From Chiloscyllium plagiosum (taxonomy: Eukaryota), in contig NC_057719.1 in the NCBI RefSeq assembly GCF_004010195.1, positions 29,054,556-29,114,324 on the forward strand: a stretch of 59,769 bases of DNA, in the 5' to 3' direction. The translations under genes and the position numbers were made by a program. The notes under the pieces are model-generated. The model had not been told where the DNA came from. It saw nothing but the letters and a program-made list of their open reading frames with translations, and ran no database searches. Shown here one piece after another: positions 1 through 59,769 of this stretch (position 1 is the stretch's first letter; each line of letters begins with the position of its first letter).

Positions 1-212
1 GGTTTGATTCCAGCCTCGGGTGACTGTCTGTATGGAGTTTGCACATTCTCCCCATGTCTGCGTGGGTTTCCTCCAGGTGTTCCAGTTTGCTCCCACAGTC
101 CAAAGATGTGCAGGTCAGGTGAATTGGTCATGCTAAAATTGCCCATAGTGTTAGGTGCATTAGTCAAAGGGAAATGGGCCTGGTTGGGCCGACAGGCCTG
201 TTGGGTAATGTG
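1..212 (+). mobile_element. tRNA-derived V-SINE (HE1-like), cut by window start
   Basis: B-box remnant plus the core GTTTGCACATTCTCCCC..TGCGTGGGTTTCCTCC..CCCACAGTCCAAAGATGTGCAGG shared with the other SINE copies. Confidence 0.85.
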
Positions 213-355
213 AGGAAAAATCTTTTACACGCAGTGAGTAGTTAGGGTATGGAATGAACTGCCTAGAAAAGTAGTGGAGGCGTGTTTAATTGAGGCATTC
301 AAGAGAGCATTTGATATTTTTTGAATAGTAATGATGTGCAGAGATGTGAAGATAC

Positions 356-986
356 TGTGGCATTTTGTCCATTTTTAATGAAGAAAGGTTGAGACAGAGG
401 TGCCGAGCAATCTGTCCTATGTAATAAAGTAAACAGCTTGTGAGTCTTTGAGCTTTTTTTAAAATTGGAACAATAGAATCAGCCTGAATGGGTGGGGTCA
501 AGCTCCTACAGAACTTGGATTTTAATTTTAGCTTTCTGTAGTTGCTGGAGTCTTGAGTCTGGATGTGGAAGCTGTGATTCCTCTCTCTGTTACTGCTAAA
601 GTTGGGGTTCTGTGCCAGCTGCTAGAATTGCATGTAAGACAATCTATTTGCTGAATTTGTCAAGGATGTGTTTATGGGATGTCACTATATTGGAACAATT
701 ACTTACTAATAATTGATATATATATATATACATATATATTTTATACATATATTATTTTGTTAAGCATTTCGGTAGAGTTATAGTTCGCCAGTTTTATTCT
801 ATATTTAATTTTGACTGTGTTTTAACTGTAATGTATGAATAAAATGTGTTTGCTTCAAGCCTGGTAGTTTAATCAATCAAATTGCATCCAGAATGCAATG
901 CCTGGCACTTACCTTTAAATAAGAAAAAGTTAGGGTCTGGATATCTCCTTGACATGTTTTGAGGGGTTTTGGTCTGGTCCATATCA
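356..986 (+). mobile_element. Solo LTR related to the Gmr1-like Gypsy LTRs
   Basis: 3' end (aaagttagggtctgg...tgttttgagggg...ctggtccatatca) matches the 3' ends of the LTRs ending at 5180, 10894 and 21207; internal AATAAA. The 5' boundary is approximate and no TSD was seen. Confidence 0.6.
716..750. repeat. Imperfect (TA)n microsatellite
   Basis: atatatatatatatacatatatat... seen directly. Confidence 0.8.
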
Positions 987-2142
987 GGGGCAAGAGGAAA
1001 AGGTAGGAGATTGTCACTAGATAATAGAGATGGAGAAGGTAATAGAGCCAGTGCAGGTACGCTGGGCCAAATATTCTGAACCATCATAATTCTATGATTC
1101 TGTGCCCCTTCAAGCATCCATAGTTGATATATCAAAGCCACTTTTCGACTGACCACCCCATTAAGGAATTGTCTGAAATTGTGGTTTACATAGAACCCAA
1201 ATACAAACTCTTTGTAATGGTTACAATTGTAGAAGCCACCAGAGTTTTTGCAAGCCAGATGTATCACCTATAGCCATGTTACAAATTCAGGAATGTATCA
1301 TCAACTTGTGGAATGTATAAAAGGGAAGGATTATTGTTTATTCAAACATAACTAGATGATCTTGATTTGAACCCAATGCATTTTTAAAATGTATTCATGG
1401 AATATGGATATCACTGGTTAAACCACCATTCATTGCCCATCCTTGATTGTTCTAAACAAGATAAACTACCTTCTTGAACTGCTGAAATTCTTGGGCTGCA
1501 GAGACACTATAAAGGCTATTTCTTTTTATTTCATCTTCTTATTGCTGTGGACTGAATTAGGAAAACAGCAGTTTTACCGCACTGAGGAAGGAAAAGCAAG
1601 TTACTGAAACTAATTGTAAGTTGTGTTTACACTGTTGCTTTGCAAGCAGTGCTGGAAATGTAAATAGATGACATGGCATCAGAGGTGTGTGTACAAAGTG
1701 AGATTCAGATGGCAACAATTGGCTGACTGATTTGGGCAGTTGTGACCAGTTACAGATGTCAAAATGTGCTGGCAATTCTCAGATTGGTTCCTGGGCAGCT
1801 GAACAGCTTGTAGGTGTGAATTATACAGAGAAAAGCTCTCAGATCACTGGAAGACGAGGTCAGGAATCTATCTGACCTGTAAAATATCTAAAGAGCACTC
1901 AAGCAGATGTTTTCTCCCACCAGTTGCTGTAAGCTATTACTTTTAACCAACAAAACAGTGACTTTATAATTTGTGAATCAATCACTCAGTGCTTCATGTG
2001 AAGAAGTGAAAGAAGCCAAAAGAAAAAATTTGAAGAACTGAAGGTCTTTGGAAGGGGTCTACATCAAAACCTGAAGACTGGTTCTATTGAACTGTTTCCC
2101 TGGTTTTTTTCACTCTATTTGTAATCCCAATGTATTTTTGTC

Positions 2143-2163
2143 TATATATATATATATATATAT

Positions 2164-2202
<39 letters not shown>
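2143..2202. repeat. Compound (TA)n(GA)n microsatellite, followed by a 20-bp direct repeat
   Basis: Seen directly; tttaaaagaaatttgagagt occurs twice just downstream. Confidence 0.9.
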
Positions 2203-2205
<3 letters not shown>

Positions 2206-2307
2206 TTTAAAAGAAATTTGAGAGTTTTAACTTTAAAAGAAATTTGAGAGTCATATATTAAAAGTTCACAATTGTCTACCCATGGTTCGAATCTATATAT
2301 TTGTCAC

Positions 2308-3230
2308 TGTTATGAGGTTGTAGATGTGTACTGTACCTTTAAGGGAGCTGAAATTTCTGGCTGGCACACAGTGTGCTGAAAGATTTAAATGCGTAATATT
2401 TGGTTGACACAAATAACTGGAGCTGCGATACCATGGTACAAAATAAATTCTAATTCAGCCAATCAGTTTAAATTATACCCGAGATAGCAAAACCCAATCA
2501 AATTTGAATTTTACTGTTTTGGATGACAACAAAACAATGAAATGGTCCAATGTTTTGGATTTGGATAAAATTAGACATTTTGAACAGTTAGGGGAGAACA
2601 GCAAAGAGCTGCCAAGCACCAACATAATAGCCAGCAGACTAGCTCTCTGAAAGGTACCTGTCCATAAGAAATATGTGCAGCAGAACACCAAAGCTGACCT
2701 AGAGAAATCTACAGAGAAAGTCTGAAGATGACAATTGGTTTTTGAAAGTGGTTTGTCATAAATTTAAGAGGGAATTTATCGGACCAGTATTGTAGAGTGG
2801 AAGGGAAAAATAAGTTTAAGAGAAAGGAGTTGTAAATAGTTGTTGTTTAATGCTTTCCTTTGGACTTAAAGAATAAAGTTGTTAATTTTTTTAAAAATAA
2901 TGATATTTGGGATAGTTCTTTGCCACTCGAAATTTAACAGATTACGGCACAAGGTGAACTTTTCTGTGTAGGAGAAAGTGAGGACTGCAGATGCTGGAGA
3001 TCAGAGCTGAAAATGTGTTGCTGGAAAAGCACAGCAGGTCAGGCAGCATCCAAGGAGCAGGAGAATCAACGTTTCGGGCATGAGCCTGAAGAAGGGCTCA
3101 TGCCCGAAACATTGATTCTCCTGCTCCTTGGATGCTGCCAGACTTGCTGCGCTTTTCCAGCAACACATTTTCAGAACTTTTCTGTGTGGCTGGTTTAAAT
3201 TAGTAGAGGGGATTACCTTGTGTTGTAATA
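2308..3230 (+). mobile_element. Solo LTR, family B
   Basis: Colinear with 21360-22085 (tgttatga.gttgta...ccaatcag.ttaaattat...gaataaa...ggtttaaattag..ga); interrupted by 2970-3173. Confidence 0.75.
2970..3173. mobile_element. Palindromic Penelope-derived non-autonomous element with degenerate hammerhead motif
   Basis: ~80-bp inverted arms; core CTGAAGA-A-GGGC-TCAT-GCCC-GAAAC at 3086-3110; 14-bp TSD GAACTTTTCTGTGT (2956-2969 / 3174-3187). Confidence 0.8.
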
Positions 3231-4031
3231 ATAACAAATAGTGTTTTTTGTTAAGTAAAGAAACCTTATTCTGTTTCCCTTATTCTATCAGACATGTAAA
3301 GTGGGAATATTGCATAATTTGACAAAAGTTTGAACTTTTGTGATGACTCCAGGATTAGTCAGCGTGCTACCCCAATGAGGCATAACAACATCTACACTAC
3401 TGTTAGGCAGGGAGTTCCACGATTTTATCAATTGATAGAATAGTGATTTTGTTCCAAGTCAGAACAGTGTGTGATTTGAAGGGAAACTTGTAGTGATGGT
3501 GTTGCTATGCATCTGCTGTCCCTTTCCTTCAAGCTGGTAGAGATTGCAGGTATGAAAGATTCTGTCTAAAGAGCCTTGGTGATTTATTGCAGTGCATCTT
3601 ATTGTTGGTAGTGCTGTTGCTATTGTGAATTGCTAGTGAAGAAAATGAACATTGAATGTGCTGGATGCACTACCAAACAAACAGGCTACTTTGACCTGAA
3701 TGATGTCAAAGATATTTGAGTGCAGTTGGAGATGTACTCATCCAGCCAAATGGAAAGTATCCCATCATACATCTGACCTCTCCTTTGTAGATACTGGAAA
3801 GTCATTTTGGGAGACAATCTTAATACATTATTCTGGAATGAGGTCTTTGCATACAGGTTTAATCTCAATTAAAAGCTTTAAAAGATAGTTCCGTTGGTTG
3901 GAGAAGGACTGATAAATCGGAATTGCAACGAGCTTCCATATACAGTAAAATCACAATAAGTTGAATTGCAGACGGCCGCCCACCAATTCTTGTTAAGCAG
4001 TGCTTCGAAAGGGACAAAGAAGCTACTATGT

Positions 4032-4178
4032 AACAGAAAGAGAAATTGCTGGAAAAACTCAGTTCTGGACAACTGAAATGTTAACTCTGCTTTCTCTGCA
4101 CAAATGCTACCAGACACGCTTAGGTGCTTCAGCAATTTCTGTTTTAATTTCTGATTCCTAGCATTTGCAGTTCTTTGC
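4032..4178. mobile_element. Degenerate Penelope-derived repeat (same family as 46655-46757)
   Basis: gaaatgttaact...tttctctgcaca.atgct.ccagac...agcaa.ttctgtttt shared with 46677-46750; partial fold-back. Confidence 0.55.
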
Positions 4179-4646
4179 AATTTTTTTTGTTAAACTGTTA
4201 TGTCACTTGATTTGCCTGCAAATGAATCACTGTCAAAAAACAACAAATTATAACTCAGTGAAGCAGCAAATTTATGAAAAATATCTTTATTTTTCAATTT
4301 GTTCACACCGTACAATGGCTTGATCTTGTACAATGAAAGGCTTTGAAAATCATTGTGAGTTATTTCTGGAAAAACTCAGAAATCATTTTCTTCTCCAGAC
4401 AAATCCACCTTGTTATGAATGCAGTCAAACATACATTCTATGTTTTTGTGACACAGAACAAGATCTCAGCATATCTCTCCTATCTTTGTAGCTTCAGCTC
4501 GGGAAGCAGATGGTTGAAAGGGCAGCTATTCATCTAATCCTTCCGGATCATCAAGGTGAATATCTTGCTTTTTATCCATTCATTTATTTTGTCTATTTTT
4601 TCTCCCAAAAATTATAGAGGGCATCCAGGCCTTTTATTGGCCTCAT

Positions 4647-5180
4647 TGTCACGAAGCTGGTCCATTTTCAAAGTTACTATGCATTTGAGTTTTTTTCAGA
4701 GAGGGGGAAAATTGGCCAGCCTCCAAACAGGCTGGGTTTGAAAGGTTTATTGGGGCCCTTTTTGTTTACCCCTAACAGATAATGCCTCCAGCCTAAGGCT
4801 TTCATGTCTTTTAAAAAACAGTATAATCAAGGGGACATGGCCAGCTGTCTAGCTGCACAGTTTGGGGGTTAGTTGAGTCAGGAAACTGGAAACTCTCTAC
4901 CTCCTTCTGCCCTTCTGACTTTGTAACCTGTAAGTTTTTTGTGTCATTTTTACTCTTTGTGCTAAGGGGAACAGCATCATTAAGTTGGGATAGCCTGTTG
5001 GTTCATTGTGTTTCATTCTCTAATTTTGTAAATAAATTATGTTTGTTTAAAACTTGGCAATCAGACCAGCTAATTCATTCCTGGAGTATCCACCGTACAC
5101 CTACCTGAAAGAAATAGCAAAGTTACGGTCTGGGCTACCTGCTTAAAAATGTTTTGAGGGGTCGGGCCTGGTCTATAACA
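4647..5180 (+). repeat. 5' LTR
   Basis: tgtcac...taaca; direct repeat of 10280-10894 with internal deletions. Confidence 0.92.
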
Positions 5181-5328
5181 GATTGGGGACTCTTTGTGGG
5201 ACTTGTTTGTAGTTCCAAATTGGGATTTGGTATTCGAATTGTTTGGACTCAGAGGCAGCGAGTGGCAGGTATTGATATCTTTTATTTCAGGTGTTGATTT
5301 GGTTGGGTAAAAATAGTTTGGGATAGCA

Positions 5329-6670
5329 ATGGTTTTTTCAGTCACCAAGAGTTTTCTAGAGGTGGAAGAAGTGACCTTGGGGATTTTAAAAAAGGTAGAT
5401 AAGGTCAAGCTGCAGGAATTAGTAGGCAAGCTGGAGTTAGAGCTACCTCCTAATGTGAGGAAAGGTGAGATGATTACAACAATAGCTCAGCTTTTAAATT
5501 TGCTGAAAACACCATCAGGATCTGTAGAGATGGCAAACATTCAATTGCAAATGAAGCAGCTTGAGTTAGAGGCGAGAGATAAGGAAAGGGCAGCAGAAAT
5601 GAAACAATTTGAGTTACGATTAAAAGCAGAAGAGAAAGAAAACGAATGAAGGGCTTTAGCAGAAGAGAAAGAAAGAGTTTGAACTCCAGAAAATGACACT
5701 TAGAAAGGAAAGTCGGCTTAAAAGGATGGAGATGAAGGCTGAGGGTAGCTCAGTGAGGAAGAGAATGAGGATGAGCAAGCTGCTGGTAGTCAGAAGCCTA
5801 GTGAGAAACTGTTTAAGTATGGTCAAGCATTGCCTAAATTTGATGAGAAAGATACGGAAGCCCTTTTCATCTCATTTGAAAAAATGGCTAAACAAATACA
5901 GTGGCCAGTGACCATGTGGGTTTTGTTAATCCAAATCAAACTTCTAGGTAGAGCTAGTGAGGTATTCGCATCACTATCAGAGGAGGCATCGGGGAGTATG
6001 AGAAGATAAAAAAGCCATCTTAAGTGCATATGAGCTTGTACCAGAAGCCTACATAGAGGAAGCTCAATTATCCAAAGGTCACGGGCGGGGAGTATTTGGT
6101 TCGGCTAATCGAATTCTGGATAATTGAATGCTGGATTATATTATAGCTAAGCATTGCGACCTTGCAATCTTGTCAGATAATCCGATATTCAGATAATCAA
6201 GGTTCCTCTATAGACAATGGAATCTAAGGAGGGACCCTGGTCAAACCTATATTGAGTTTGAAAGAATCAAAGAAAGTAATTTTGATAGGTGGATAAGTGC
6301 TTTAAAAATACTGCAAACCTATGACACTCTTGGAGGAATTCAAAAATTCACTGCCTGAAGTAGTGCACACTCATGTGGAAGAGCAGAGAGTTAAAACGGC
6401 AAGGGTAGCAGCTGAAGTGGCTGATGATTATGAGTTGATCTATGAAACACAGTTTGGCTTCCAAAATCATCTTCAATCGACGAGGGATAGAAATTTGGGC
6501 AAAGAGAAATCCTCACATGGAAAGGGAAAGGTAAATCTCTGTGAAGATTATAAGGATAACTTACCACAGGGTTAAAAAGGAAATCTTCCCAAGGGACAAC
6601 AAAGGTAAAAAGCTTTGGTGTTTTCATTGCAATGAAGTAGGCCACATGAAATTAGTGTTCGTGGGTTAAG
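5329..6670 (+). pseudogene. Gypsy gag (coiled coil, SCAN-like capsid region, CCHC knuckle), disrupted
   Basis: Fragments LPKFDEKDTEALFISFEKMAKQIQWP, AYELVPEAY, LEEFKNSLPEVVHTHVEEQRVKTARVAAEVADDYE and CFHCNEVGH (~6619-6645). Confidence 0.8.
6054..6210. mobile_element. 157-bp MITE (Tc1/mariner, pogo/Tigger-like) inserted in gag
   Basis: Imperfect TIRs TAGAGGAAGCTCAATTATC / GATAATCAAGGTTCCTCTA, internal GATAAT repeats, TA on the right flank; removal rejoins gag at EAY-RQ. Confidence 0.75.
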
Positions 6671-6736
6671 AAAAAGCCTGATGTATAGAAACAGGACATG
6701 CCTGGGAGTTTTGTTGGAGTGGTAACATAAAGCACA

Positions 6737-7140
6737 GTGGAAGCAAGAAAGCTGAATCAGAGTGTACAAGCTGATCAGAGATTGGTTAAGGAGGAAGTGC
6801 CAGATCTGCTTAGAAAATATACCTACAAGGGTAAAGTTTATTCACATAGGCCAGGAACAGCAGGTAGAGAGGTTACAATATTAAGGAACACAGGATCTGT
6901 GGTGTTGAAGGATGAGGAGATATGTACACATGAGGGACAATTGCCAGAAAAGGTACTGGTAACAGGAATTCATGGTGAGACAAAACATGCTCAGTTAAGT
7001 AAAGCGAGGTTAGAGTGTCCAGAGAAGAGTGAAGAATTTGTGGTAGGCTTACTGGACAAACTCTCAGTTCCAGAAATACAATTTGTCCTTGCAAATGATA
7101 TAGCTGTTTCACTGGTAGGAGTACTGCTACTGTGGTTGAA
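6737..7140 (+). pseudogene. Gypsy aspartic protease, disrupted
   Basis: VTILRNTGS (catalytic D to N relative to LRDTG) and IQFVLANDIA (ILGND-type motif). Confidence 0.7.
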
Positions 7141-7578
7141 AAGCCAATGGAGACTTAGGCAACTGAAGCAATGCAGAACCGTTATCCTGTAATCTTTCCT
7201 GATTGTGTGGTAATGAGGTCACAAAGTCACCAGTTGAAACAGGAGAGCTCAAAGGCTATAGATAAGGAAGCTGAAGTGGCATTAGCAGAGACTTTATTTG
7301 ATCAGATAGTTGAGATAAAACAGGAGCAAATCAGTGATCATGCAAATATTTTTAGCTTAGCTGAACTAATTGAGTTACAGCAGAAAGATGACAATTTAAA
7401 ACAGTTGTATCAAAAGGCATACGCAGAAAAGGAATCTGAATGTATCCCTAAGTGTTATTACCTGAAAAATTATGTCTTGATGAGGAATTGGAGACCATCA
7501 CATATTCAGGCAGATGAGAAATGGGCAGAAATTCATCAAATTGTCTTGCCAGTGGGGTATAGAAGGGAGATGTTGTGA

Positions 7579-8620
7579 GTGGCTCATGAACTACTACTCC
7601 GAGGTCATTTAAGAGTGAGGAAAATACAGGCTAAAATACAAAGTCAGTTTTATTTGCCTGGACGGCACATGGATGTAGTTGAATTTTGCCAGATGTGTCA
7701 TACATGTCAGGTAATTGGAAAACCACAGGCGATAATAACACCTGCAATTTTAAGACCTGTTTCAGCATTTAAGGAACCTTTTACAAAAGTCTTAATTGAT
7801 TGCGTAGGTGCCTTACTTCAAACAAAAAGTGCAAATCAGTATTTGCTAGCAATAATGGATGTATTGACAAGATATCCAGGGGCTGTCCCATTATGCAATA
7901 TCACAGCCAAAAGGATTGTAGAGAAATTACTTAAATTTTTAAAATTTTAGATATGGGCTACCAATAGAGATACAGTCAGATCCAGGGTCACACTTCACAT
8001 CCAAACTATTCAAGGAAGTTATGGACAGCTTAGGAATAAAACAATTCCAATCTAATGCATACCATCCAGAATTGCAGGGAGTGCTAGAAAGGTGACATCA
8101 AACATTAATGACCATGTTGAGGGCCTACAGTCAAGACTATCCACATGATTGGGATAAGGGAATTCCTTTTATGCTTTTTGTGATCAGAGATGCATCAAAT
8201 GAATCAACCAAATTCAGTCCATTTGGATTAGTTTTTGGGCATGAAGTGAGAGGACCATTAAAATTGATTAAGGAGAAAGTAGTAGGTCAGAATTCAGAGA
8301 CCATGCATTTGGCCTCTGTGTCAAATTTTAGGGAACAATTAAATAGAGCAGAGAAGTTGGCTAGACCACATTTAAAAATATAGCAGTATTCAATGCAACA
8401 GAAAGAAGACAAGAAATCACAAATTCGCAATGTTGCTACTGGGGATAAGGTATTAGTATTATTTCCAGTCATAGGTTAACCTTTAAAAGCAAGGTTTAGT
8501 GGATCTTATCAAATCAAAAGGAAATTAAGTGAGGTGAACTTCTTGGTAGAGACATTAGACAGGAACAAACCTCACAGAGTGTGTCATGTAAATATGCTAT
8601 AAAGGTATTTTGACATGGAG
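7579..8620 (+). pseudogene. Gypsy integrase (HHCC, DDE core, GPY/F), upstream of RT
   Basis: AHE..GHL...FCQMCHTCQ, VLIDCVG, IQSD, YHPELQGVLER, FSPFGLVFGHEVRGPL, KARFSGSYQI. Confidence 0.88.
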
Positions 8621-8869
8621 GGAAAGCATGAGGAGAAGGTATTAATGATTACAACACAGAAGGAAGAACCAAGTCCAAAGGATTCTGCACTGGACATTCC
8701 TCAAATTAAATTGGACAATGAAGAAGTTGTCAAAAATTGGGATTGAATATTGAGAAAAATTGAAATGACCTGAAAGAGTTACTACTATTACATGGGGGGA
8801 TATGCAGAAATAAACTGGGAAGTACTAATCTAATTGTGCATGATGTAGATATCAGTGATACTGTTACAA

Positions 8870-10100
8870 TTAAGCTACATCCTTATAGGCATAACCCTCT
8901 AAAGTTGGCGCAGGTTCAGAAAGAGATTGCATGCATGCTCCAAGACAACATAATCGAAGTACAGTGACTGGAGCCCACCTGTAGTAATGATGCCAAAGCC
9001 AGATGGTACCCAATGGTTATTTGTGGACTATTGCAAATTCAATGCAGTTACAAAGACTGATGTATATCATGGTTGGAAGACTGTGTTGAAAAAGTGGGGC
9101 AAGCAACTTACATTTCTAAGTTGGGCTTGCTCAGACGCTGTTGGCAGATACCTTTGTCAGAAAGAGCACCGGCAATTTCGACTTTTGTAATGCCAAATGG
9201 ACTGTATCAGTTTAAAGTCATGCCATTTAGCATGAAAAACACACCAGCCACATTTCAGAGACTAACCAATAAGGTCATTGCTGGATTACCCAACTGTGTG
9301 GTGCACATGGATGCCATCATGGTTTTTAGTCACTCATGGAAGGAACATTTACAACATTTATCAGACTTGTTTGATTGACTTCAGCTTGGTGATAAACCTA
9401 ACTAAAAGTGAAGTTGCCAAAGCACAAGTCACCTTCCTGGGCCATGTTATTGGAAACAGACAAATGGCCCCATGGAATGTGAAACAAAAGTAATTGGGGA
9501 ATTTCCCATACCATTGACAAAAAGAGCAGTACTATGGTTCCTGGGATTGAATGGATTTTATCGAAAGTTTGTGCTGAATTTAGCCGTGTGGCTGCTCCAC
9601 TCACTGAATTGCTAAAGAAAGGCAAGAAGTTTCAGTGAACAGTAAACTGTCAGAAGGCATTTGACAGCCTGAAAACAGTGTTAACCACTGCCCCAGTAAT
9701 AGCCACACCTGATTAGGCAAAGCCTTTCAAGGTGGCTATCGATGCAAATGATATGGGTGTCGGTGTGGTGCTCCTTCAGGAAGATGACGAAAAGATAGAA
9801 AGACCTAGCAGGTAATTTTCCAGAACATTGAACGTTCATCAGCAGAAATACTCAACAGTTGAGAAAGAGACTTTGAGCTTGGTGTTGGCATTATAACATT
9901 TCAGTGTTTATATTACCAGCAACACAACTGAGATAATCATATACACTGATCATAACCCACTGAAGTTTGTGGAGAAATTTAAGGACAAAAATACCACACT
10001 GTTTAGATGAAGCTTGCTGTTATAGCCATTCAGTTTGACAATTGTGCATATGGCAGGTTGAGAAAATGTAATTGATGACGTATTGTCGAGACTCGAATGA
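8870..10100 (+). pseudogene. Gypsy reverse transcriptase + RNase H, disrupted
   Basis: PKPDGTQWLFVDYCKFNAVT, GLYQFKVMPFSMKNTPATFQR, HMDAI (YxDD decayed), AIDANDMGVGVVL, YSTVEKE, YTDHNPL. Confidence 0.88.
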
Positions 10101-39497: not shown

Positions 39498-40124
39498 CTG
39501 CTCTCGTGAGGAAAACACAGCGAGGAATTACAATCCAGGTGAAATGTGCATCGACACAGAAACACGCGTCAACATCGGCAGCTAATCAAAGACCCGAAAA
39601 TCACCTTCAAGGTATTTGCTCTGGGCGATGAGCACCCTTGTCAACAACAAAGCAAACTATTTTATGACTATTTTTTACAACTGCTAGTGCTTCCAAATAT
39701 GGCGAATCAATTCAGTGTTCTTTCGGTCTAACATAATTGAGGCATTATTGTCGCAAATAACTGAAGTCAAGATAAGAAGAGACAGATTTGCGTTAAAATT
39801 TAGAAACATTGATTTTGGACCTAACAGACCTCGAAGAAAATCTAAGCGTTTATCCACCCTATATATTGAGCTTCTAAGAGCCAATCTGGAAGGGTTGGCT
39901 TAATCGAGTTGCAAGGACTAATGATTGAAGTATTTCCTTCAGTCTGATGTGATTTACACGAGTCCAGACTTTACTGTGAAATACAAGCAGTTTTAGGCAG
40001 ACACAGATAAGAGTAATCAATCAATTCAGTTGTTTTGTGTACCTATTTGATTCGACGAGTTATTTTAATACCATAAACACGAATTTTAAATTACCTAACT
40101 GCAGCATATTGTCATGTTTTGCTA

Positions 40125-41027
<903 letters not shown>

Positions 41028-57170: not shown

Positions 57171-57983
57171 CCCTTCATTATTTTCAAAACATGAAACAAA
57201 TCTCTGCTAACCAACATTTCAAAATGAAAATAGCCATCAATTCTCAGATTCTATCTTGATAGCATTGGTTTGAAGACTGGGATTCTTTTTGGCTACATTT
57301 ATCTCCACTGCTTTAGGATTTAAATACTCATTGCCAAATTTGGGGACTACAATTGGATACAGCAGCCCAAATTATGCCAAGGGAATCCTAGGATAAGTTT
57401 TCAGTCTAGATTCTTCATTAATTATATGGATGTATTGCCTACTCATTATAGAACCTGCCTGATTATCATTCCATTGAAGTCACTGGGATGAAAGTCTGGG
57501 TGGATTCCATAGCAAGTGCATAACAACTGCCTCTCCACATTATTACCCTGGGTGGTCAAGATGGTCACTTCCCTTGTCAGTTTAAGTTGACCTACTTGAA
57601 ATGAATTTAGTTTTGGCGGTATAAGTTGGAGAACTACAAAACAAAACTCCCATATTTTGGCCAGCATAAATTCACAATTTCACCCAGAAAGACCATAATG
57701 ATTATTTCTAAAAGGCTTGAAACAAAATTATATTATTAGTTACAGTAATGAATCTTCTTCTGAAATTGCCATTAGACAACATTTTTTGAGTCTCTGCTCA
57801 AGTAAAATTTCAAGTGGAAAAATGGTGAAGCAATGTTTTCCTTTATGCGGTTGAAATTTATACTTGTTGCATAATTTAGACTTCCTGCAGTTTAAAAGTT
57901 CAAGGTGGCAGTAATTCTGAAAGTAACATGCTTGCCAGAAAATGGACAATAATTTTAACACTCTCTTTTTTCTCATTTAGATG

Positions 57984-58744
57984 TGTGAGAGACGATTTCG
58001 GTACAAATAGTTAAGATGTGCATGACCTCAGAGTCTAAGGGGAATAGAGCCGTGGGGGTAGAGTAAAACATGCTTCTCTATAATAAAGGACGAGACATCT
58101 GCTGCTACAGAGTAGAAAAACAAGTCCTTGATTGATAAGACCACTAACTCTGACAGAGAAGAATAAGTCCTTGACTGATAAGACTACAGGGTAGAAAACC
58201 ACTGTGCCACCGGCGGCACGGTGGCACAGTGGTTAGCACTGCTGCCTCACAGCGCCAGAGACCCGGGTTCAATTCCCGACTCAGGCGACTGACTGTGTGG
58301 AGTTTGCACATTCTCCCCGTGTCTGCGTGGGTTTCCTCCGGGTGCTCTGGTTTCCTCCCACAGTCCAAAGATGTGCAGGGTCAGGTGAATTGGCCATGCT
58401 AAATTGCCCATAGTGTTAGGTTAAAGGGGTAAATGTAGGGGTATGGGTGGGTTGCGCTTCGGCGGGTCGGTGTGGACTTGTTGGGCCGAAGGGCCTGTTT
58501 CCACACTGTAAGTAATCTAATCTAAAACAACTCGGGAAACTGTTGCAGACTTTGTGAGAATGTGAACCTCGTGACTCTTTAGAGCTATAGAGGGGAGGGA
58601 CTTGTACTGTATTTAATTAGAAACATTGTTAGCCTGGCGCGCCTTTTTTTTTAAGGGTGCCCAACTCTGCAGACTTGTTAATAAAACTTTGTTTTCCTGA
58701 ATTTGTCCAGAGCAATTATTGAGAAGCGATTTTCGTTTCTAACA
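57984..58744 (+). repeat. ERV 5' LTR (interrupted by a SINE)
   Basis: TG start near 57982-57984 (approximate); U3 direct repeats; AATAAA 58680-85; ends ...ctaaca at 58744, 4 nt before the PBS. Confidence 0.75.
58212..58523 (+). mobile_element. Young V-SINE inserted in ERV U3
   Basis: Full head, core and (AATCT)n tail; short AAAAC repeat on both flanks. Confidence 0.93.
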
Positions 58745-58748
58745 AACT

Positions 58749-58764
58749 TGGGGGCTCGTCCGAT
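58749..58764 (+). promoter_or_regulatory. Primer-binding site complementary to the tRNA-Pro 3' end
   Basis: TGGGGGCTCGTCCG(AT) versus the canonical Pro PBS TGGGGGCTCGTCCGGGAT. Confidence 0.88.
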
Positions 58765-58964
58765 CAACACTCCGGCCGCGAGGGGGGGCTGAGGAAGGAT
58801 ATCGGAGAAGGTGCACCCTGCCGAGTTCGGCAGTCCCTGATTCCTTGCTTGTCGCCCCGCGCGGCTTGAGCGAATGATATCCGGAAGGCTCAGGAGATCA
58901 AAGGAGGGGTGTGGCCGAGGCAGTGGGGACGGTTAACGATCGAGTAATTTCGGTGCACCGAACC

Positions 58965-58973
58965 CAGGTAAGA
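58965..58973 (+). promoter_or_regulatory. Candidate retroviral major splice donor
   Basis: CAG|GTAAGA in the leader between PBS and gag. Confidence 0.55.
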
Positions 58974-59187
58974 ACAGACTTGCGGGAACCGTCTTTCCGG
59001 AGGACTGGGGACCTGCGGAGTGCCTGTAGATTTTTCTACAGAGACGTGGGACACAGGAATCCAAAGACCGGGGGTGCCTGCAAAGGGACCTGGGCGATCA
59101 CGGGACTGAAGGTCCGGGAATTGGCTAAATAGTGATAGATTATCACGGGATAATACTGGAATCTCCGATTTTACAAAGTCCTCGGCA

Positions 59188-59769
59188 ATGGGAAATAAGG
59201 GAACCAAGGCGAATAAGGGAAAGGTAGGCTTGAGCGTAGACAATGAAAAATACCCCGGGGTACCTGACGATAGTCCGTTAGGAATAATGTTAAATAATTG
59301 GGATCAGGGTAGGAGAAAAGGAAAATCTAGAAAGAAGATGGTGAGATACTGTCAAACGTGGTCCCAAACACCTATTCAGGGAGACTCAGTGTGGTGGCCT
59401 AAATTCGGCACTGATGAAGACTGGGTCCGGCAAGCTCTAATTTTATATGTCAATTCGAAACCTAATGTTACTCGGGGGGAAAGTGATTACGCCCTTTGTT
59501 GGCTGCCAGTCACACTATCTTGCAAAATGAAGGTAACCAATGAAGACTCGAAAGGGCAGAAAGAATGGGAACCTTTACCGCCGCCCTACGTGACCCCGTC
59601 GGCCCCGCAAAATGGTCCTTCGGGTGGCGACGATTCAGGGGAAGTGGAAGAAAGCGGGGAGGAACCACCAGGTGCCACAGGAGTACAGACTAGATCTCAA
59701 GCTGAAAAGAGTCACAGACGGAACTCTGTCCCGATTGCAAGAATGAATCCACTCCGGGAAGTGCCCATG
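59188..59769 (+). CDS. gag: Retroviral Gag N-terminus (MA, late-domain spacer, start of CA), 3'-partial
   Basis: 194 uninterrupted codons: MGNKGTK...DSPLGIMLNNW...KKMVRYCQTW...WWPKFGTDEDWVRQAL...DYALCW...EPLPPPYVTPSAP...MNPLREVPM. Gly2 myristoylation site, good Kozak context (GCAATGG), PPPY 59578-89, PSAP 59596-607. Confidence 0.88.
   Translation, partial: MGNKGTKANKGKVGLSVDNEKYPGVPDDSPLGIMLNNWDQGRRKGKSRKKMVRYCQTWSQTPIQGDSVWWPKFGTDEDWVRQALILYVNSKPNVTRGESDYALCWLPVTLSCKMKVTNEDSKGQKEWEPLPPPYVTPSAPQNGPSGGDDSGEVEESGEEPPGATGVQTRSQAEKSHRRNSVPIARMNPLREVPM

What the first reader, a model, noticed from the sequence alone, without database searches (positions are those of the whole stretch)
57984..59769. 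Young, apparently intact class I endogenous retrovirus ~17 kb upstream of six6, missed by the ORF track
Seen: LTR ending in CA, Pro PBS, CAG|GTAAGA donor, and a gag frame open for all 194 available codons with Gly2, PPPY and PSAP two residues apart, and PLREVPM at the expected capsid start. CpGs are abundant, unlike the decayed flanking TEs. Known: a Pro PBS, myristoylated MA, PPxY/PSAP late domains and the SPLG..L..W / WP.FG matrix motifs are typical of gamma-like class I retroviruses, and cartilaginous-fish ERVs are sparsely described. Inference: a recent, possibly coding-competent and possibly undescribed shark retroviral lineage.
Basis: partly seen in the sequence, partly recalled or inferred. 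Interest (0 to 1): 0.7.

Follow-up and report, generated by a model that had tools for sequence, protein, structure and literature searches.

The report
Broken shark retrovirus, odd primer site
This is a damaged copy of a multi-copy retrovirus family in a shark genome, likely millions of years old and likely already catalogued, and its one oddity is a tRNA primer site with a small deletion or insertion in 50 of 51 copies found.

Summary
The motifs are real, but the provirus is not intact. Beyond the window lie a 2,497-N run, env and the 3' LTR.

Signs of damage and age:
- The LTRs differ at 5 of 432 sites.
- The 5' LTR carries a ~324-bp SINE-like insertion.
- env lacks a furin-type cleavage motif and stops inside the membrane anchor.
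- The interior is 1.2-1.7 kb shorter than in five sisters, if the gap sizes hold.
- At shark mutation rates, 1.2% means about 8 million generations.

It is a class I, gamma-like ERV, not Gypsy. Sisters have gag-TAG-pro-pol and an ERV3-type env, with the closest proteins in bamboo sharks and rays, then reptiles and birds. The LTR search gave 588 candidates.

Only 1 of 51 has normal length, although standard reverse transcription should restore it about half the time. A sequence look-up of the scan's earlier notes found nothing.

The parts
57980..57983 (.). Target-site duplication GATG, repeated after the 3' LTR. It is 4 bp here; of 12 copies checked, 9 have 5 bp, 2 have 4 bp and 1 has none.
57984..58744 (+). 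5' LTR (TG...CA), 432 bp without the insertion; 5 substitutions and a 1-nt indel against the 3' LTR, which lies beyond the window (L011 6410-6841)
58200..58523 (+). SINE-like insertion (~324 bp) flanked by AAAAC repeats, with a 16-nt fold-back at its 5' end; absent from the 3' LTR. The tRNA-derived SINE label is recalled.
   Evidence: similar sequence in 7 of 20 other fetched loci
58680..58685 (+). AATAAA. Family RNA reads are polyadenylated 12-16 nt after the matching signal of the 3' LTR.
58749..58764 (+). tRNA-Pro primer binding site after a 4-nt spacer: 14-nt match, then 2 nt missing; shared by the sub-lineage
58965..58973 (+). Splice-donor-like CAG|GTAAGA in the leader (use untested)
59188..59769 (+). 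5' part of gag (matrix, late domains, capsid start), open for 194 codons; three codons shorter than most sisters just before PPPY. The element goes on beyond the window: 2,497 N (L011 2025-4521), a broken ERV3-type env (L011 4522-6201), a polypurine tract and the 3' LTR (L011 6410-6841).
40122..40853 (-). Context: first coding exon of a SIX homeobox gene (six6 by synteny); the provirus points away from it

Best explanation
This is a defective provirus of a class I, gamma-like endogenous retrovirus family with an ERV3-type envelope, which likely inserted into a shark germ line millions of years ago and has since decayed. Shown: integration with a target-site duplication, two LTRs 1.2% apart, a later SINE-like insertion in the 5' LTR, and two lesions in env. 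Shown in sisters only: gag, an in-frame TAG, then protease, RT, RNase H and an MLV-type integrase. Inferred from gammaretrovirus biology: the ancestor primed reverse transcription with tRNA-Pro, made Pol by read-through, made Env from a spliced RNA and budded through PPxY/PSAP. Inferred: this copy can no longer make infectious particles, may lack part of pol, and most family members are now solo LTRs. The indel-bearing primer site was evidently usable and was passed on almost unchanged; why is open (see the section on the most novel reading).
For: - Structure and TSD.
- Sister gag-pol with Gag_p30, one zinc knuckle, RVP, RVT_1, RNase H, rve and MLVIN_C. TAG at the junction in 5 of 5 readable copies.
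- RT scores against solved RTs: top hit E 3e-79, MMLV RT 2e-64, foamy 5e-32, Ty3 2e-21.
- Env is 76-90% identical to three C. punctatum ERV3-1-like proteins and 61% to a stingray protein. Gag is 85% and 52% identical.
- Env stops 56 aa after the cysteine loop, against 94-108 in 3 of 3 sisters and 95-131 in 8 of 8 database proteins.
- The furin-type motif is absent here, but present in 4 of 4 sisters with an env junction and 5 of 6 database proteins.
- Gag-to-env distance is 3,079 against 4,295-4,799 in 5 sisters.
- LTR search: 588 candidates, 40 scored, all 96-100%. About 51 copies have a readable primer site.
Against: - pol of this copy cannot be read, and N-run lengths are estimates, so the deletion is not shown.
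- The env frame break lies in a G run and could be an assembly error. mixes family copies and cannot settle it.
- The RT evidence comes from sisters, and L015 may be chimeric at its 3' end.
- No named gamma- or epsilonretrovirus was in the tree.
- The age rests on 5 substitutions and on borrowed rates. It spans 0.9 to 61 My across the rates tried.
Confidence: 0.88

Rival explanations
1. One reading: a recent, coding-competent provirus of a still-active, undescribed shark lineage.
For: gag is open for 194 codons and env for 559. CpG is retained. Family LTR RNA is polyadenylated at the expected site in one RNA run. Other LTRs in the genome are 99% identical to this one.
Against: The LTRs are not identical, the 5' LTR is interrupted and env has two lesions. 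It fails two of the three 'invading ERV' criteria of PMC10435555. Only 11 of 79 RNA reads are at least 99% alike to this locus. Chiloscyllium gamma-Env lineages are already published.
Confidence: 0.04
2. The copy belongs to a non-autonomous, pol-deleted sub-lineage that was short before it integrated and was moved by helper proviruses.
For: The interior is 1.2-1.7 kb shorter than in sisters. Internal deletions occur in the family (L015, L055), and one element pairs this LTR and primer site with an unrelated interior (L051).
Against: The sister with the same short leader and an almost identical env (L030) has a near-normal gag-to-env distance and an integrase tail. No second copy with the same short interior was seen.
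Confidence: 0.15
3. The provirus was co-opted, either as a source of truncated secreted Env or Gag, or as a regulatory element for six6 or the six6os1-like gene downstream.
For: Long open gag and env frames. It lies between six6 and S6OS1 exon matches, in the orientation of the latter, about 2 kb before a CpG-rich patch.
Against: At about 1% divergence, open frames are expected without selection. No RNA reads lay on the 3' flank in the one run laid (about 2% of a polyA single-cell run; weak). No conservation across species was shown.
Confidence: 0.05

Closest known systems
Gamma-related class I ERVs with gamma-type Env in Chiloscyllium (ERV-GA.a-Cpu; Chen et al., bioRxiv 10.1101/2021.11.23.469661; Results section and passages read)
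   Same: Same host group as the closest proteins, gamma-related Pol, gamma-type Env and a simple gag-pol-env layout. The paper reports 46 orthologous ERV groups in the genus and CXnCC loop variants.
   Different: Sequence identity was not testable because the supplementary consensus and locus tables were closed. The passages I read do not mention primer-site indels.
ERV3-1 (HERV-R)-type Env class I ERVs of birds, reptiles and mammals
   Same: Env hits carry this annotation (about 34-44% over most of the length in birds and mammals). The nearest named RT is from a rattlesnake (68%), then passerines (59-64%). PMC4422223 (part 1 of 2 read) notes a lemon-shark ERV close to a human ERV; its HERV-I label is recalled, and that paper was not held.
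   Different: Shark-specific sequences, a mostly 5-bp TSD, and an indel-bearing Pro primer site.
Murine leukemia virus-type gammaretroviruses
   Same: Gag_p30, a single zinc knuckle, TAG read-through layout, MLVIN_C, Pro primer, PPPY and PSAP, CXXC and ISD.
   Different: The TM loop is CX7CC rather than CX6CC, the RT lies among reptile and bird ERVs, and the primer site is not a perfect 18-mer.
Mouse ETn, MusD and IAP families with imperfect primer sites (PMC7472051; passages read)
   Same: The commonest primer site of the family mismatches the tRNA, indels included, yet the family spread.
   Different: In mouse, perfect sites recur across the tree as apparent revertants. Here each indel type is one side of a single branch, and only 1 of 51 copies has normal length.

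Membership tests
Retroviridae, class I (gamma/epsilon-like) ERV | LTRs TG...CA, TSD, PBS and PPT around gag-pol-env | tested here: met
   pol of this copy lies in an N run
Retroviridae, class I (gamma/epsilon-like) ERV | gag and pro-pol in one frame separated by a stop; single zinc knuckle | tested here: met
   in sister copies only: TAG in 5 of 5 readable junctions
Retroviridae, class I (gamma/epsilon-like) ERV | RT closer to MLV-type RT than to Ty3/Gypsy, foamy or lentiviral RT | tested here: met
   (sister L015)
Gammaretrovirus genus proper versus gamma-like ERV clades or epsilon | RT groups with named gammaretroviruses in a tree | tested here: inconclusive
   one search had no named reference viruses; the family groups with a rattlesnake ERV and two unnamed proteins (98/95)
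Gamma-type Env | CXXC in SU, ISD, and a three-cysteine loop in TM | tested here: met
   CWVC, ISD, TLV_coat E 5e-07; definition from PMC9967133 section 3.7
Gamma-type Env | Loop spacing exactly CX6CC | tested here: not met
   CX7CC here, in 3 of 3 sisters and in relatives; Chen et al. class such loops as CXnCC
Invading ERV (Wang and Han 2023, PMC10435555) | Identical LTRs | tested here: not met
   5 substitutions, 1 indel and an insertion
Invading ERV (Wang and Han 2023, PMC10435555) | [quoted passage not shown] | tested here: not met
   env has two lesions; pol unreadable
Invading ERV (Wang and Han 2023, PMC10435555) | Insertional polymorphism | tested here: inconclusive
   a contig of run X1 spans the 3' junction without differences; X3 and X14 do not cover it; no empty site among the rows shown
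ERV-GA lineages of Chiloscyllium (Chen et al.) | Near-identity to a published lineage consensus | not testable with these tools
   bioRxiv supplements closed; journal version not held

The most novel reading that the evidence does not exclude
This shark retrovirus family replicated in the germ line without overwriting its primer site from the tRNA. Two sub-lineages each fixed a different indel in the Pro site and passed it on almost without reversion (50 of 51 copies), although the genome holds no matching variant tRNA. That would mean near-strict PBS inheritance, as described for Ty1/Ty3, in a true class I retrovirus. It could arise through trimming or strand-biased repair of the tRNA-copied strand, or through strong silencing of perfect sites by tRNA fragments.
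Probability: 0.3. Interest if true: 0.55.

Novelty: new member of a known kind. Interest (0 to 1): 0.25.

Why it matters
As a locus it is ordinary: one decayed copy among hundreds of LTRs, of a kind already surveyed in bamboo sharks. It shows that 99% LTR identity and retained CpG do not mean 'recent' in a slowly mutating shark genome. The point worth keeping is the family-wide primer-site indel. It gives a countable natural test of how the PBS is inherited in germ-line retroviral replication, and of whether tRNA-fragment silencing shapes ERVs outside mammals.

Tried and rejected
- Pfam on the 194-aa window Gag: no family. Rfam: two weak matches far below their gathering scores, taken as chance. 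No tRNA genes in the window.
- Gypsy origin: rejected.
- A variant tRNA-Pro matching the shortened site: 0 matches, against 49 for the normal 3' end.
- Perfect-PBS loci as revertants of this family: rejected for those checked. Ten of 19 loci show no LTR or gag match at DNA level, only a short leader match in 4, and where gag matched, mostly 28-58% Gag identity. Six of 12 loci show no DNA match. The others were not checked.
- Two 'LFDSL' regex matches in L023 and L027 had no env hit and were dropped from the furin count.
- No RNA holder was listed by the run index; this is not evidence either way.
- The 5' junction was not examined in other individuals. Run X14 (another organism) did not cover the flank, so orthology is untested.
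- Papers: 'HERV-I' with 'lemon shark' gave 0; a PBS-variant search gave 0. 'Chiloscyllium' with 'endogenous retrovirus' gave 7, of which only Chen et al. was read. In PMC10435555 the genus appeared only in the genome list among 14 supplementary files; one PDF was unreadable and long cells are cut.
- The scan's earlier notes by sequence and by words gave nothing.

Full report
1. Observation. The window shows an LTR from 57984 (TG) to 58744 (CA), a Pro-type primer site at 58749, CAG|GTAAGA at 58965-58973, and a gag frame from 59188 open for 194 codons with Gly2, PPPY, PSAP and PLREVPM. An open frame this long has a chance of about 2e-5. CpG o/e is 0.84 against 0.05-0.33 in the preceding 10 kb. 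A SIX_SD plus homeodomain exon starts at 40853 on the minus strand, 17.1 kb away. S6OS1 matches 39 kb and 149 kb beyond the window end support the name six6 (the six6-six6os1 pairing is recalled).

2. The rest of the element. The window ends where a run of 2,497 N begins in G000:C10. After it come 559 open env codons (L011 4522-6198), a polypurine tract, a 432-bp 3' LTR (L011 6410-6841) and GATG, which also precedes the 5' LTR. The LTRs differ by 5 substitutions in 432 sites and a 1-nt indel. The 5' LTR holds a ~324-bp insertion between AAAAC repeats that the 3' LTR lacks; similar sequence occurs in 7 of 20 other loci. I infer a SINE that arrived after integration.

Env has CWVC, an ISD and a CX7CC loop. 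It lacks the furin-type motif seen in 4 of 4 sisters and 5 of 6 database proteins. It stops 56 aa after the loop, inside the membrane anchor, against 94-108 in 3 sisters and 95-131 in 8 database proteins. The gag-to-env distance is 3,079 against 4,295-4,799 in five sisters. That suggests a missing 1.2-1.7 kb, but it depends on gap sizes.

3. Family. The leader-gag search gave 65 matches from 40 scored of 87 candidates. The LTR search gave 588 candidates, with 40 scored at 96-100%. I took 20 sister loci and 13 more loci, six of which proved to be other families. No family copy could be read end to end: most have N runs, and the others are broken, truncated or cut by a contig end. Sisters show Gag_p30, one zinc knuckle, an in-frame TAG (5 of 5 readable), protease, RT, RNase H, integrase and MLVIN_C. 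Of 12 copies with both ends, 9 have a 5-bp TSD, 2 have 4 bp and 1 has none, so these are independent integrations.

4. Relatives. Env is 76-90% identical to three Chiloscyllium punctatum proteins annotated ERV3-1 Env-like, 53-61% to stingray proteins and about 40% to bird proteins. Gag is 85% identical to a C. punctatum protein and 52% to a stingray protein. I infer a bamboo-shark-like host. Sister Pol hits are mostly bird and reptile ERVs. For the RT tree I chose 31 of the 120 listed hits, dropped one as too short and added two shark copies. The shark rows group with a rattlesnake ERV and two unnamed proteins (98/95); no named virus was included. Against solved structures the RT scores E 3e-79 with the top hit and 2e-64 with MMLV RT, against 5e-32 for foamy virus and 2e-21 for Ty3. 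Gypsy is excluded; gamma versus epsilon was not tested with references.

5. Age and activity. K2P is 0.0117. At 7e-10 per generation (PMC10587355, passages) that is 8.3 million generations (2.7-19). At the 2.2e-10 per year assumed for sharks in PMC4422223 (part 1 of 2 read) it is 27 My (8.5-61); at a mammalian rate, 2.7 My. In one search a contig of run X1 spans the 3' junction with no differences; X1 may or may not be independent of the assembly. X3 and X14 do not cover the junction. In RNA run X23 (about 2% read), 79 reads lay on the stretch, with polyA tails 12-16 nt after AATAAA. Only 11 are at least 99% alike and none lie on the 3' flank, so family LTRs are transcribed but this locus is not shown to be.

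6. The primer site. The normal tRNA-Pro 3' end has 49 exact matches in G000, and a variant matching the shortened site has none. The window's form, lacking 2 nt, has 24 exact matches, plus one copy with a further substitution. The sister sub-lineage carries a 3-nt insertion in 25 matches (20 exact, 5 with one mismatch). A normal-length site followed by the family leader occurs once, with one substitution. Other Pro-primed families in the genome have perfect sites. In a 12-copy tree the two types are split by a single branch (100/100).

Standard reverse transcription copies the tRNA into the plus strand, so about half of new proviruses should carry the tRNA's sequence (PMC4549124, part 1 of 2 read). 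One or fewer of 51 has a probability near 2e-14 under that model if the copies were independent. About half lie on high-numbered, probably short contigs and some may duplicate one another, so the true n is lower. Imperfect family-wide sites, with indels, are known in mouse ETn, MusD and IAP, where perfect sites recur (PMC7472051, passages). The phenomenon is therefore known, and only its strictness stands out. The mechanism is inferred, not shown.

7. Literature. Chen et al. (bioRxiv 10.1101/2021.11.23.469661; Results read whole, other passages by search) found gamma-Env ERVs in 6 cartilaginous fishes, name ERV-GA.a-Cpu, and report 46 orthologous groups in Chiloscyllium. Their supplements were closed and bear directly on novelty. 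PMC6001957 (passages) reports that cartilaginous-fish retroviruses are scattered through the tree, which fits the reptile and bird neighbours. PMC10435555 (passages and supplement searches) defines invading ERVs; this copy fails two of its three criteria. Searches for papers on this exact family or its primer site were made; none of the listings named it.

8. Verdict. A real but defective class I gamma-like provirus of a probably catalogued family, with low divergence but probably great age. Interest 0.25, mainly for the primer-site pattern.

Noticed in passing
window 58197-58234: The SINE-like insertion begins with a perfect 16-nt inverted repeat of its own 5' end, which suggests a fold-back or template switch during insertion.
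   Followed up: partly
L025 (reverse strand) ~2114-6480: The interior of one sister is a ~4.3-kb tandem array of a ~104-bp LTR-derived unit, either a satellite expansion or an assembly artefact.
   Followed up: no
L051 ~187-7554: Family-type LTRs and the shortened primer site flank a leader with no match to the family leader or gag: a possible non-autonomous or recombinant element.
   Followed up: no
L029 ~6650-8029: A different class I gag (about 40% identity) lies in reverse orientation inside a sister copy, a likely nested ERV insertion.
   Followed up: no
L011 ~8840-9340; G000:C10:29153530 and 29263740: A CpG-rich patch lies 2 kb past the 3' LTR, with S6OS1 (six6os1-like) exon matches further on the same strand. 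The provirus sits in the region between six6 and this gene.
   Followed up: partly
L033-L048: Other Pro-primed class I ERV families with perfect 18-nt primer sites and 4-nt spacers exist in the genome.
   Followed up: partly
window 58105-58201 and sister LTRs and leaders: LTR U3 and leader lengths vary among sisters through tandem units (LTRs about 430-550 bp; a ~93-110-nt leader unit in one to four copies).
   Followed up: no
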